From Eledone cirrhosa (Eukaryota): DNA of 64,000 nucleotides. Shown in pieces: positions 6,074 to 40,600 of this stretch. The notes under the pieces are model-generated. The model did no database searches. It was given only the letters and a program-made list of their open reading frames with translations, and was not told the origin of the DNA. Location of the stretch: positions 36,952,001 to 37,016,000 of the forward strand of contig OZ024751.1 in NCBI GenBank assembly GCA_964016885.1. Direction: 5' to 3'. The position numbers were made by a program, and so were the translations under genes. Position 1 is the stretch's first letter; the number at the start of each line of letters is the position of its first letter.

Positions 6074-6265
6074 TAAGGTAAACAGAAATAACAACACAAT
6101 CGGTACAATATATGGAAGGGATATGTTAGGTTAACGCTTGATATAGCAGGAAAAGGGTGTTAACGTTTCGGACGCTAGTCCTTCATCAGAAGAAAGAATG
6201 AGAAATAAGATAGATTGAGGGGACGGGTGGGTTGGAATTGAAAAAAATGTCTTTAGATAAAAATA
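6074..6265 (-). mobile_element. Penelope-like terminal-repeat remnant (family C) with hammerhead-like core
   Basis: The minus strand at 6161-6189 reads CTGATGA-A-GGAC-TAGC-GTCC-GAAACGTTA. A homologous copy lies at 40377-40600. It ends TTTACCTTA at a (TA)n tract. Confidence 0.65.
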
Positions 6266-7650
6266 ACAGGTCCATTGCGTGTATGTATGTATATGTATGT
6301 ATATGTGTGTGTATGTATATGTATATATGTATGTACGTATATGTGTGTGTATGTATATGTATGTATATGTGTGTGTGTATATGTATGTATGTATGTATGT
6401 ATGTATGTATGTATGTATGTATGTATGTATGTATTATATATATATATGTATGTACATATCCATACAGGTGGATTTCTCCTATTGTAGGATGTACTATATT
6501 ACTATATACACACAAGGGGGATGTAAACACACATACTATATATATATACAACCGGATGAACTTTTACCTACCATTCAAAAACAATGGGGACAGAGAGAAA
6601 AACCCTTTAAGGTCAATGTTCCCTTTCAAGAGATGCCTTAAATTTTAAAAGATGTTATTTATGGAACAGATCAACATAACAATGTTCCATTGCAGGGTCC
6701 ACGGCCTTTTATTTAAAGGTTCTTTATGTTATTGAGAGAAAACTTTGGTGAAAAGGGATTTAAACAAACCAGGGAACAGATGTATTTAGGAAGACTTCTT
6801 GTCATCCGAAGCCCCTTTTTACCTCCTGGGCTATCAATACATCCATCTCTCTGTTTATCTGTCTATCCACATAACCCTTAAACTGTCTATCTATCTATCT
6901 ATCTTTTTTTGTAATTATGTATATATATCTGTGTGTGTGTGTGTGTGTGTGTGTGTGTGTGTGTGTGTGTGTGTGTGTGTGTACAGTAAATATACATGTA
7001 TATATTACGTCGATAAGCATAAATATATATTCATACACACGCGTATATATATACACACACACACACATATATATATATACACACACACACACATATATAT
7101 ACACACACACACACATATATATATATACACACACACACATATATATACACACACACACATATATATACACACACACACACATATATATATATATATATAT
7201 ATATATATATATATATATATATATATATATATATATATGCATGTATATGTATGAATAAATATAATAATTCATGCATACATTTGTATGTACGTACATATAC
7301 ATACAGGCATGTATGTATGTATGTATATATATATATATGAATATGAATATATATATATATATATATGAATATGAGTATATATATATATATATATATGAAT
7401 ATGAATATATATATATATAAATATATATAAATATATATATATATATATATATATATATATATATATATATATATATATATATATATATATATATATATAT
7501 ATATATATATATATATATATATACATGCGTGTGTATGTATGTGTGTGTATATATATATGTAAGATTTCGGTTAATATTTCGCCGGGTGAAAATGTTAACA
7601 AGATTTGAGTAAATAAACATATAATACGTGAGGGACCAACTGATACTATT

Positions 7651-7838
7651 ACCACCACCACCACTACTACTACTACTACTACTACTACTACTACTACTAC
7701 TACTACTACTACTACCACCACCACTACTACTACCACTACTACTACTACTACTACTACTACTACTACTACTACTACTACTACTACTACTACTACTACTACT
7801 ACTACTACTACTAATAATAATAATAATAATAATAATAA
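7651..7838. repeat. (CTA)n/(CCA)n/(TAA)n compound microsatellite
   Basis: Read directly. Confidence 0.95.
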
Positions 7839-8082
7839 ACATATGATAGGAAGAGGGACCGACTGAGGAAGTTTGTGTTGAAAGGTACAGATGTTGCTCA
7901 TCTGTGTGAGAAGGGACATCAATCTAAGTAGGGCTGTATATGGTTAAGGAGAGGCTAAAATAACAATAGGTCATGAAACAATAACCTCACTCCTCTCTAC
8001 TACAGACTCAACGTAATTTATTCCGTACAACTTGTCTATTTCCGCCTACACTCTCTTCTCTTATTATATATCTACCTACTAA

Positions 8083-8270
8083 GGGAGGTGACTTGGCAGT
8101 AACGGTAGAGTGTCGGATGTCATGCTTTCCAGTATAGTTACGTCCCTTTACGGTCTGAGTTCAAATCCCGTCGAGGTTAACTTTACCTTTCATCCTTACG
8201 GGGTCGATAAAATAATGAACGAGTAATGCACTGGGTAATTGCAGACCTTGTGCCAAAAGTAGAAACAATT
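8083..8270 (+). mobile_element. SINE S1, full length
   Basis: A/B boxes, core and tail GTAGAAACAATT. Flanked by the direct repeat tatatctaccta. Confidence 0.9.
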
Positions 8271-8364
8271 TTATATCTACCTATCTAAAGTTTTTGTCTG
8301 TCTGTCTCTGAGTAGGTCTCCTTCTTTCGCTCTCTCTCGCTATATATATATATATATATATATG

Positions 8365-8561
8365 TAACAAAGGAATTGTGGTAAGGAACCAGATGGACCA
8401 TAACGCACCAGAGTACTCAATACTTAGGGTAGTAGAGTGCAAAATATGAAAAATTATAACCCCGACGGCAGAGCTCAAGCCGTTTAGACGGCTATTTCTG
8501 GACTCCAGAAATAGCCGTCGAAACGGCTTGAGCTCTGCCGATCGGGTCATACTTTTTCCTA
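8365..8561 (-). mobile_element. Hairpin element family A, diverged variant
   Basis: Tail (GGTAAGGAACCAGATGGACCATAACGCACCAGAGTACTCAATACTTAGGG) plus a long inverted repeat centred near 8503. (TA)n on both sides. Confidence 0.85.
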
Positions 8562-38825: not shown

Positions 38826-38827
38826 AT

Positions 38828-39009
38828 AATTGTTTCTATTTTTAGCACAAGGCCAGCAATTATATCAGTTCATTACTGGTACTTTAGTTTATCGACTTCG
38901 TAAGGATGAAAGGCAAAGTTAACCTCGACGGGATTTGAACTCAGAATGGCAAGGGCCGTAACTCTATGCGTCAAAGCATGGCGTTCGACCCTCTACCGAT
39001 ACTGCCAAT
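38828..39009 (-). mobile_element. SINE S1, abutting the minisatellite end
   Basis: Reverse complement of tail, core and head. Confidence 0.9.
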
Positions 39010-39069
39010 AACAACAGCTAACAGCAACAACAACAGTAACAAAAACGATACAATCGGGTATGGTTATCA

Positions 39070-39330
39070 AACGACACCAGATTGAATCCTATGGGTACAG
39101 CGAGCTGATGTTGCTTTTTAGGCCAGCAAGTGACCTACAGTACTTTGCACATAGTTGTCAGGTGTGCATCGTTCCCAATATAACTTTATTGGTCCTTGAT
39201 GCACATTATGTTCTTTGATGTGCCTTTTTAGGCCGTCAAGAGACCTGTAATCTTTGTCACAGGTTCTCAATGTGTATGTTGTATTCCTGGTCTTGTCGAT
39301 TTGGTTATCGCTCTATATTCTAAGTGCTCA
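39070..39330 (-). pseudogene. Decayed tandem C2H2 zinc fingers, probably the C-terminus of an RTE-type LINE
   Basis: Minus strand: TLRTCDKDYRSLDGLKRHIKEH, then after a frameshift T*QLCAKYCRSLAGLKSNI, fitting CxxCxxxCxSxxGLxxHxxxH. Confidence 0.55.
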
Positions 39331-40376
39331 ATATTCATGACTACGAAGAATGAAACAGTTTTAGTCCTGTAGAAGCCATTTCTATACATAATAAATATGT
39401 ATTTTCTCTACTATTATATTGAACACCTTATTTAACAGAGCTTTCTTCCCGATCTCCCCTGGGAAATCGTTTTTCATCACAGACCCCCCCCCCCACCCAC
39501 ACACGTATATATGTATGTATGTATGTATGTATGTATGTATGTATGTAAGTATGTATGTGTGCATTTATGCATACCACTGTGTGTGCATTTGTGTCTATTT
39601 ACGTTGCTGTTAGTTTATGTCTCAAAACGTAGGAGTTCGTTGAATAGGAATCGATAAAATAAGTATTATACATAATAATTATCATCATCATCATCATCAT
39701 CATCATCATCATCATCGTTATATCATTATTTCTTCTTTTTTTTAAATTTAATCTCATCAGGTCTAATTTTCTAAAGTCGTTATCTAACGTAGTACGTACG
39801 CTGTTGATGTTACTGAAGACAAAGAGTGAAAATGTATGTAGGAGAGAGATAAGCAAGTGTTTCGACAGGAACAAGGACATTTTCTTCAGACTGTGTGTCT
39901 TATCTACAAATGTTTGTCAAAGATTCATTCAATCCACTGACACAGATATCATAATAATGATAATAGAAAATATAATGAAATTTTTGCTGTCACATACGTT
40001 AAAAAAATATATACAGATAGACACACATCGAACGTAAACAGAGCACGTCTTGATTTCTTACTGTTGGCACAGGCCCATAATTTCCTGAGAACATACGTGT
40101 GTAAGTATGTATGTATTCACGTATGTATCTATAAACGTATGTATATTGTTCAATTATATATATTCACACATACATACACACATATATATATATATAGACA
40201 CACACATATATATATATATATATATATATATATATATATATATATATATATATATATATATATATATATATAATTCTTTTTCCCTTTTCCCAAAGCGTAT
40301 AACTATTGAAACTTTGTGTAATTATTCCCCATATATATATATATATGTGTGTGTATGTGTATGTATATGTGTGTGT

Positions 40377-40600
40377 TAAAGGTAAACAGAAATAACAAAG
40401 TAAACGACACAGTTCATTGAAGAAATATATTATATATAACGCTTGAAATAGAATGAAAAATGTTTTAACGTTTCAGACACCAGTCCTTCATCAGAAGATA
40501 GAGTTATAAATAGAAGATAAATAGAAACATAAAGAATAAGAACGGGGGAAAAAGAAGAGAAATAAACACACGCGTGCTTATTCAGTCAGCCATTTTGGGA
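40377..40600 (-). mobile_element. Family C Penelope-like remnant with hammerhead-like core
   Basis: aaggtaaacagaaataacaa...aacgcttga...taacgtttcagacaccagtccttcatcagaaga is homologous to 6074-6265. Minus strand CTGATGA-A-GGAC-TGGT-GTCT-GAAACGTTA. Confidence 0.65.

What the first reader, a model, noticed from the sequence alone, without database searches (positions are those of the whole stretch)
6074..40600. Shared layout across sequence-distinct TA-adjacent elements: GAAAC or hammerhead core ~90-125 nt from the microsatellite junction
Seen: on one strand of each element a GAAAC lies at a similar distance from the 3' junction. Family C at 6165 is ~91 nt and at 40470 ~93 nt (a TG/TA mixed tract); 18342 is ~92 nt; 17042 ~95 nt; family B at 31631 and 11475 ~100 nt; family A at 24076 ~116 nt; 28402 ~125 nt. 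Families A and B share TATTGAGTAC in the tail. B and C end in (T)TACCTTA or TATCTTA. Established: Penelope-like elements carry minimal hammerhead motifs in their terminal repeats and often leave inverted or partial terminal copies. Inference: several PLE lineages, or their parasites, colonise (TA)n here and may help seed or expand these tracts.
Basis: partly seen in the sequence, partly recalled or inferred. Interest (0 to 1): 0.72.

Follow-up and report, generated by a model that had tools for sequence, protein, structure and literature searches.

The report
Penelope retroelement ends with twin hairpins
These short pieces beside TA repeats are the cut-off tail ends of several families of Penelope-like jumping genes, a layout already published; the less ordinary part is a small hairpin motif lying just past each of the two points where copies end, which likely tells the element's enzyme where to start copying.

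Summary
Real, mostly known. The listed elements are 3' ends of high-copy Penelope-like retroelements (PLEs). Families A (24076) and B (11475, 31631) join Hydra-type RT/GIY-YIG ORFs, C (6165, 40470) and 18342 join Neptune-type ORFs, and 28402 is a relative of A. 17042 is a non-coding repeat with no hammerhead. The full hammerhead core is strongly tied to microsatellites (26 of 34 at 30-160 nt, background 14%); bare GAAAC is not. A hammerhead about 100 nt from a (TA)n junction is already in Craig 2021, including an octopus Hydra element. Expansion of tracts is not supported (adjacent tracts median 20 versus 22 nt). New-looking: the shared TATTGAGTAC is half of a bulged hairpin. Hydra-type elements carry it twice in the 5' UTR, each copy just past one of two fixed ends, and 75 of 82 fold-back insertions use one end on each arm. 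This fits published two-site internal priming (Frangieh 2024) and gives a candidate docking signal. I reached this before the look-up; the scan had noted the same hairpins on other pieces of this genome and in another genome.

The parts
5506..5817 (-). Fragment of a Hydra-type GIY-YIG endonuclease ORF (another family, 49% identical to A), followed by its 3' UTR
   Evidence: tblastn E 4e-29; sequence
6076..6276 (-). Family C 3' end (Neptune-type PLE); minimal hammerhead core 6165-6189; ends on (TA)n
8367..8562 (-). Family A fold-back, older variant: long arm 8367-8504 (-), short arm 8504-8562 (+); hairpin 1 at 8413-8438
9276..9356 (+). Decayed family B short arm
11380..11593 (-). Family B fold-back (Hydra-type): long arm 11380-11503 (-) with a complete type I hammerhead and tail hairpin, short arm 11518-11593 (+)
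11939..12034 (+).
16949..17107 (-). Family F: dispersed non-coding repeat with a fixed end, a tail and partial tandems; no hammerhead; no ORF linked
18210..18436 (+). Family E 3' end (Neptune-type); hammerhead core 18322-18346 without helix I
18983..19172 (+). Family A fold-back (short arm -, long arm +); hairpin 1 at 19101-19126
23874..23965 (+). Family A tail-only copy; hairpin 1 at 23894-23919
24006..24195 (+). Family A fold-back (Hydra clade): short arm 24006-24057 (-), long arm 24060-24195 (+); 3' half of the hammerhead; hairpin 1 at 24124-24149 contains TATTGAGTAC
28385..28529 (+). Family G 3' end, about 72% like A, long end with decayed hairpin 1 (28458-28478); ORF not linked
31549..31601 (+). 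Family H short arm (Hydra-type), directly followed by a B copy
31606..31733 (+). Family B long arm with complete type I hammerhead (core 31612-31635) and decayed hairpin 1 (31678-31698)
39348..39434 (+). Decayed family B copy
40380..40525 (-). Family C variant 3' end (79% to 6076-6197), core 40470-40494
45314..45364 (-). 3' end of a third PLE type (N2), hammerhead-like core with GAAAG

Best explanation
These are 5'-truncated 3' ends of Hydra-type and Neptune-type Penelope-like retroelements sitting in TA/CA microsatellites; the distance from hammerhead to junction is fixed because copying likely starts at two set points downstream of the ribozyme, each likely marked by a bulged RNA hairpin in the Hydra-type families. 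Shown here: links to RT/GIY-YIG ORFs; two fixed ends 60-90 nt apart; the tail between them is the start of the 5' UTR of the next tandem unit; a motif RCTC-stem-loop-stem-NN-GAGY-RC lies up to about 16 nt past each end in A and K; fold-back copies pair one short with one long end. Inferred: the endonuclease cuts both strands of a (TA)n target; a protein dimer bound to the two hairpins on a read-through tandem (or circular) RNA primes cDNA from both DNA ends, one at each site; both cDNAs often stop early and are joined head to head; hammerhead cleavage is not needed for this.
For: ORF links. Hydra motifs in A and K. Two end peaks in A, B, G, H and K. Read contigs (one study, possibly the assembly's own sample) show (AT)n loose ends at K 4568 and 4656 and A 4962, with depth falling several hundred-fold past the long end. 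75 of 82 fold-backs not picked by their own family search are short+long; 3 long+long, 1 short+short, 3 other. Arms can differ in length by kilobases and both begin at the element's 3' end (L256, L258), so this is not simple snap-back. Twin hairpins in A, K and the families in L281 and L321. Inner stems differ in sequence yet pair in 8 of 9 hand-picked instances (permutation p=0.0002); the outer A-T/G-C pair covaries and G-T pairs occur. By eye, the same motif is in the published Hydra-2_Amil and Hydra-2_Ajap, and twice in Hydra-1_Ajap (PMC8557442 File S7). PMC11167929 shows in vitro two internal RT start sites bounding the tail, both strands cut and extended, a predicted dimer, a need for downstream RNA, and no need for hammerhead cleavage.
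Against: No RNA or biochemical data. B's second hairpin is degenerate (no inner stem), yet B has a sharp long end. No second hairpin was seen for G, H or M because their 5' UTRs were not recovered. H's hairpin needs a 1-nt bulge. Free-energy folding recovered K hairpin 1 but not K hairpin 2 or the A hairpins, and did not give the hammerhead folds. The nine hairpins were hand-picked, and the 233-frame test (61% vs 34%) counts related copies. The motif was not seen in C, E or F, so it cannot explain the layout of all eight elements. The published biochemistry is on a Poseidon element, which primes inside an AC-rich stem-loop. G and F are not linked to an ORF.
Confidence: 0.72

Rival explanations
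1. The motif acts as DNA, not RNA: it is an endonuclease recognition site that trims or resolves the insertion intermediate at the adjacent internal TA.
For: Both ends fall at internal TA steps that mimic the target. Craig 2021 ascribes the tail to EN-mediated resolution. PMC11167929 cites the D. virilis tail as needed for EN recognition.
Against: Stems keep pairing while changing sequence and use G-T pairs, which suits single-stranded RNA. In Poseidon the tail equals the interval between two RT start sites.
Confidence: 0.13
2. The hairpins serve translation or transcription of the 5' UTR (or are a decaying duplication); the ends are set only by short UA runs in the RNA annealing to the cut (TA)n.
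For: Both hairpins lie 50-200 nt upstream of the ATG. Every end coincides with a TA step. B keeps a sharp long end with a degenerate second hairpin.
Against: UA runs are common in these AT-rich UTRs, yet ends pile up at two sites, each directly before the motif in A and K, whose RTs are 42% identical.
Confidence: 0.1
3. The hammerhead sets the junction, or the elements seed and lengthen (TA)n tracts.
For: Full cores are strongly linked to tracts. Family C carries (CA)n in its 3' region and (TA)n at its pLTR-5'UTR junction (L262), as does a 422-nt tandem unit, so some short tracts are copied.
Against: Adjacent tracts are not longer. 47 of 59 A arms span the cleavage site with no pile-up there. 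A reads CTGAGAAG in 30 of 30 young copies; E lacks helix I (0 of 25); F has no hammerhead.
Confidence: 0.05

Closest known systems
Hydra clade of C-terminal EN+ Penelope-like elements, including Hydra-1_Obim of Octopus bimaculoides (Craig et al. 2021, PMC8557442)
   Same: RW(K/R) and DKT motifs, CxCx5C linker, no CCHH, CxxC and CxH in the EN, (TA)n target, type I hammerhead about 100-200 nt from the 3' end (Hydra-1_Obim: position 2403 of 2507), inverted 5' arm, tail at one end only.
   Different: Units are 3.6-3.9 kb, not under 3 kb; tails are 60-90 nt, not 30-40; thousands of stubs and, in family K, many intact ORFs; A has a non-canonical core; the twin hairpins are not mentioned in the main text.
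Neptune clade PLEs (as defined in PMC8557442)
   Same: C and E: C-terminal GIY-YIG EN with CX2-5CxxC linker and CCHH, minimal hammerhead, microsatellite targets.
   Different: Not separated from Nematis by a tree; E lacks helix I; C has a putative 3' splice site and internal (CA)n in its 3' region.
Poseidon PAc of Anolis carolinensis (Frangieh et al. 2024, PMC11167929)
   Same: Two fixed ends bounding a tail, RNA needed downstream of the start, AT-rich targets, copies spanning the uncut hammerhead.
   Different: Other clade; priming there is inside an AC-rich stem-loop in the ORF; no duplicated bulged hairpin is reported in the parts read.
Non-LTR retrozymes (Cervera and de la Pena 2020, PMC7229834; bioRxiv 10.64898/2026.07.22.740005)
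   Same: The 310-, 422- and 467-nt hammerhead tandem arrays met in random stretches, and possibly family F's tandem non-coding unit.
   Different: A, B, C and E are stubs of coding PLEs, not tandem monomers; F has no hammerhead.

Membership tests
EN+ Penelope-like element | Single ORF with PLE-type RT and GIY-YIG endonuclease upstream of the 3' end | tested here: met
   A, C, E, H and K by ORF and tblastn linkage; B by its pLTR preceding a Hydra-type ORF in one locus, L313. Pfam: weak RVT_1 on C's RT and GIY-YIG on the N type; nothing on 6 of 8 proteins, including all Hydra-type ones.
EN+ Penelope-like element | Same feature for G (28402) and F (17042) | tested here: inconclusive
   No ORF reached; G is 72% like A's end; F walks back into its own tandem unit.
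EN+ Penelope-like element | 5' truncation, partial tandems (pLTR), inverted 5' arm, tail at one end | tested here: met
Hydra clade | RWK-like and DKT motifs in RT | tested here: met
   A: RLRWR, SDKTG; K: RLRWT, SDKTN
Hydra clade | CxCx5C linker, no CCHH, CxxC and CxH around the catalytic E and N | tested here: met
   A: CNCPDGSIC, CNLC, CKH; K: CNCRIKNKC, CNLC, CLH
Hydra clade | Canonical type I hammerhead near the 3' end | tested here: inconclusive
   Met in B (19 of 30), H (11 of 29), K (27 of 31 sites) and window M. A has three helices (18 of 30) but core CTGAGAAG in 30 of 30. G 0 of 25, all truncated. Rfam gave no hammerhead hit.
Hydra clade | Insertion into (TA)n | tested here: met
   A: 106 of 114 short and 97 of 104 long ends; reads
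Hydra clade | Generally short (<3 kb) | tested here: not met
   K unit 3896 nt; A about 3.6 kb, owing to long 3' UTRs. The paper gives this as a tendency, not a rule.
Hydra clade | RT phylogeny with reference Hydra elements | not tested
   Reference proteins were only read in the supplement; no tree was built.
Neptune clade | CX2-5CxxC linker plus CCHH in a C-terminal EN | tested here: met
   C: CSRSRCNTC and CSLC...H...H; E links to a 45-58% similar EN. Nematis shares these features.
Neptune clade | RT phylogeny separating Neptune from Nematis; DKG motif | not tested
   The Neptune label for C/E and the Nematis label for N rest on recalled sequence style.
Naiad clade | N-terminal EN, no canonical hammerhead | tested here: not met
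   The EN is C-terminal in A, C, E, H and K. F was considered because of its half-core but no ORF was found.
Non-LTR retrozyme | Tandem non-coding monomers, each with a type I hammerhead | tested here: not met
   Not met for A, B, C and E (coding) or F (no hammerhead); met by arrays outside the window.

The most novel reading that the evidence does not exclude
Hydra-clade PLEs from coral to octopus carry a duplicated, structurally conserved RNA hairpin in the 5' UTR that docks a dimer of the telomerase-related RT; each subunit primes just upstream of its hairpin from one end of a cut (TA)n. This would explain the one-sided tail, the fold-back stubs and the fixed hammerhead-to-junction distance, and would be the first defined template-recognition element of a PLE.
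Probability: 0.4. Interest if true: 0.7.

Novelty: new member of a known kind. Interest (0 to 1): 0.42.

Why it matters
What remains open is how PLE reverse transcriptases, the sister group of telomerase, pick their RNA and their start sites; the 2024 in vitro study only narrowed the binding region to 172 nt. The twin hairpin is a concrete candidate of about 25 nt. This genome also holds a young Hydra family with dozens of intact 821-codon frames and perfect tandems, so the test is direct. In practice, these stubs (213 hits in 740 kb) would be mis-annotated as MITEs, SINEs or miRNA hairpins.

Tried and rejected
Rfam gave no hammerhead match; TA tracts and fold-backs gave spurious miRNA hits. 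Pfam missed 6 of 8 proteins. Bare GAAAC as a marker was rejected. A hammerhead in F as type I (either strand, 0 of 25) or, by eye, type II was rejected; F as Naiad_Ovul could not be shown. No pile-up of 5' ends at the hammerhead cleavage site. No lengthening of adjacent TA tracts; a first count was inflated by TA left in two queries and was redone. Window 31553-31602 is not B's upstream but family H. Simple snap-back synthesis was rejected because long arms and their inverted partners both start at the element's 3' end. Unconstrained folding did not support most of the proposed structures. No RNA holder listed. Empty-site alleles were not examined, and no RT tree was built.
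Full report
Setting. The window lies at G000:C11:36952001-37016000 in a 3.0-Gb genome, 33% GC and full of (TA)n. It looks like an octopus genome (size, and a recalled SINE); I did not establish the species.

Observation. All eight sites and their distances hold within a few bases. Five have CTGANGA upstream; 24076 and 28402 are cut above GAAAC; 17042 has the halves in reverse order. 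In 600 kb of evenly spaced stretches, bare GAAAC lies 80-130 nt from (TA)n in 79 of 1239 cases, against 4-5% for six control words. In 740 kb, the full core gave 74 hits, or 34 after counting each same-locus repeat once (39 hits were in two tandem-array types). 26 of the 34 lie 30-160 nt from a TA/CA tract, against 14% of random positions (p about 4e-16), but only 11 at 80-130 nt.

Identity. Each element is a dispersed family. First-look candidates, which are lower bounds, were C 1611, B 1066, A 715, E (18342) 2071, F (17042) 1233 and G (28402) 2125. The 3' ends are fixed and the 5' ends vary. A extends 1.1 kb upstream into an ORF with RWR, SDKT, a CxCx5C linker, no CCHH, and CxxC/CxH: the Hydra diagnostics of Craig et al. 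2021 (PMC8557442; I read the abstract, sections 6 and 11, passages, and supplement parts 2, 52 and 53). B's pLTR precedes a Hydra-type ORF in one locus (L313). H, found at window 31549, follows a Hydra-type EN in four places. C and E follow ENs with a CX4CxxC linker and CCHH: Neptune-type, with Nematis not excluded. G is 72% like A, with no ORF reached. F walks back into its own unit of several hundred bases and has two ends and inverted arms, but no ORF and no hammerhead; it is likely a non-autonomous PLE-like passenger. The window also holds ends of families M and N2 and a Hydra-type EN fragment.

Hammerheads. A type I descriptor fits B in 19 of 30 copies, C 19 of 30, H 11 of 29 and K 27 of 31 sites; E 0 of 25 (core kept in 18, no helix I), F 0 of 25 and G 0 of 25. 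A has all three helices in 18 of 30 but reads CTGAGAAG in 30 of 30, so it is likely weak or dead, although at least 40 copies match a 101-nt query at 100%. The two window copies of C fail the descriptor at helix I. Minimal hammerheads in pLTRs are known (PMC4209133, passages). Craig's File S2 places Hydra hammerheads about 100-250 nt from the 3' end, with (TA)n as target, including Hydra-1_Obim.

Two ends. Ends pile up at two sites 60-90 nt apart in A, B, G, H and K. Assembled read contigs from one study (possibly the assembly's own sample, so not independent) agree: (AT)n loose ends at L415 4568 and 4656, with summed depth falling from about 10^6 to 10^3 beyond the long end, and at L258 4962, from about 4x10^6 to 10^4. 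In full-length A (L258) and in a perfect 3896-nt tandem of family K (L415), the tail between the two ends is simply the start of the next unit's 5' UTR, with no long (TA)n. Among fold-backs not picked by their own family's search, 75 of 82 have one short and one long arm, 3 long+long, 1 short+short and 3 other. In L256 and L258 one arm is kilobases long and the other about 400 nt, both starting at the 3' end. 47 of 59 off-anchor long A arms span the cleavage site.

Twin hairpin. TATTGAGTAC is the 3' half of RCTC-stem-loop-stem-NN-GAGY-RC. It follows the short end in A, B, G, H, K and M, and a second copy follows the long end in A and K. Two copies also precede the ORF in the families of L281 and L321. 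A and K RTs are 42% identical. Inner stems differ but pair in 8 of 9 hand-picked instances (G left out as A's relative; permutation p=0.0002). Over 233 distinct frames, 61% pair against 34% after shuffling, but these include related copies. By eye, the motif is in the published Hydra-2_Amil and Hydra-2_Ajap tails, twice at the start of Hydra-1_Ajap, and loosely in Hydra-1_Crog and Hydra-1_Obim. Against this: B's second copy is degenerate, free folding recovers only K hairpin 1, and I did not see the motif in C, E or F.

Mechanism. Frangieh et al. 2024 (PMC11167929; I read parts 1-2 of 4, the full results and discussion, not the supplements) showed for a Poseidon PLE two internal RT starts that bound the tail, cutting and extension of both strands, a predicted dimer, a need for downstream RNA, and no need for hammerhead cleavage. 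Applied here by inference: a dimer bound to the two hairpins primes from both ends of a cut (TA)n, one end at each site, and early termination with head-to-head joining gives the stubs. The hammerhead-to-junction distance is then a by-product. Identity as PLE ends is about 0.93 likely; the hairpins as RT signal about 0.45.

Microsatellites. 139 of 213 ends abut (TA/CA)4, against 11% of random positions. Only 121 of 1084 tracts (12 of 147 in the window) have an end of my 13 query families beside them, which is a lower bound, and these tracts are not longer (median 20 vs 22 nt, p=0.38). Targeting is supported, expansion is not. C and one array carry short internal tracts.

Literature and earlier notes. 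Searches found no description of the twin hairpin; 'hairpin' does not occur in the main texts of PMC8557442 or PMC4209133. The library lacks most subscription papers and Repbase, and I did not see the supplements of PMC11167929 (Figs S1B, S2C), which may bear on this. PMC13282606 (passages) lists 31 recently active PLE families in Octopus vulgaris. PMC7229834 (passages) and bioRxiv 10.64898/2026.07.22.740005 (part 1 of 5) cover retrozymes. I noted the hairpin idea; the look-up then showed unchecked AI notes with the same reading on other pieces of this genome and in another genome. They are not independent support.

Verdict. New members of known PLE clades. The stated layout is known; the twin hairpin is an apparently undescribed, directly testable lead. 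Interest 0.42.

Noticed in passing
L415 (G000:C2:134083000-134092000) and hits: Family K, a young Hydra-type PLE: 17392 first-look candidates; about 33 of the 150 scored have the same 821-codon open frame (counted by eye); several are perfect 3.9-kb tandems. A ready source of intact protein.
   Followed up: partly
L268, L272, L288: 310-nt tandem arrays with a type I hammerhead-like core resembling family B's, in 3 of 74 random stretches: retrozyme-like.
   Followed up: partly
L384; L292: A tandem of about 422 nt (family P, 15 core hits) with a hammerhead core and internal TA runs; two copies 467 nt apart in L292. Pieces resembling P flank the TA tract at window 8850-9045.
   Followed up: no
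L014, L030, L262 (family C 3' region): A branch-point-like run, polypyrimidine tract and CAG/G about 190 nt upstream of the hammerhead, preceded by (CA)n: a likely intron 3' splice site, as in Penelope pLTRs (recalled).
   Followed up: no
window 24060 and 11503; Apparent 5' ends of A and B arms cluster 35-46 nt upstream of the cleavage site. This may be RT stalling at the ribozyme fold, or an alignment effect of the mirror arm.
   Followed up: partly
L257 1528-2490 (-), L266 7326-8099 (-), window 45314-45364 (-): A third PLE type (Nematis-like by recall) whose hammerhead-like core reads GAAAG; missed by a GAAAC filter.
   Followed up: partly
window 2789-3361, 8058-8276, 23103-23632, 29908-30014, 33895-34255, 35842-36062, 38830-39005, 43429-43578, 48293-48439, 52670-53246, 58889-58961: A very abundant SINE-like family of about 190 nt (recalled as the octopus SINE); it supplies many of the window's GAAAC sites.
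   Followed up: no
window 25325-25600, 60591-60793, 45938-46022: A second SINE-like family; it contains a non-pairing match to the hairpin frame.
   Followed up: no
window 15376-16546 and 42141-43074: Two fragments, 77% alike and on opposite strands, of a LINE-like ORF 3' end (Cys/His motif, Tx1/L1-like by recall).
   Followed up: no
window 36213-38829: A 43-nt minisatellite, about 61 copies, 94% matches.
   Followed up: no
window 41176 and 47404: Two further TATTGAGTAC sites; 47404 is 30 nt before a (TA)n and may be a decayed Hydra-type tail.
   Followed up: no
families C and H: Predicted cleavage triplet GUU rather than GUC/GUA in most copies; U at this site is also listed for several published Hydra elements.
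   Followed up: no
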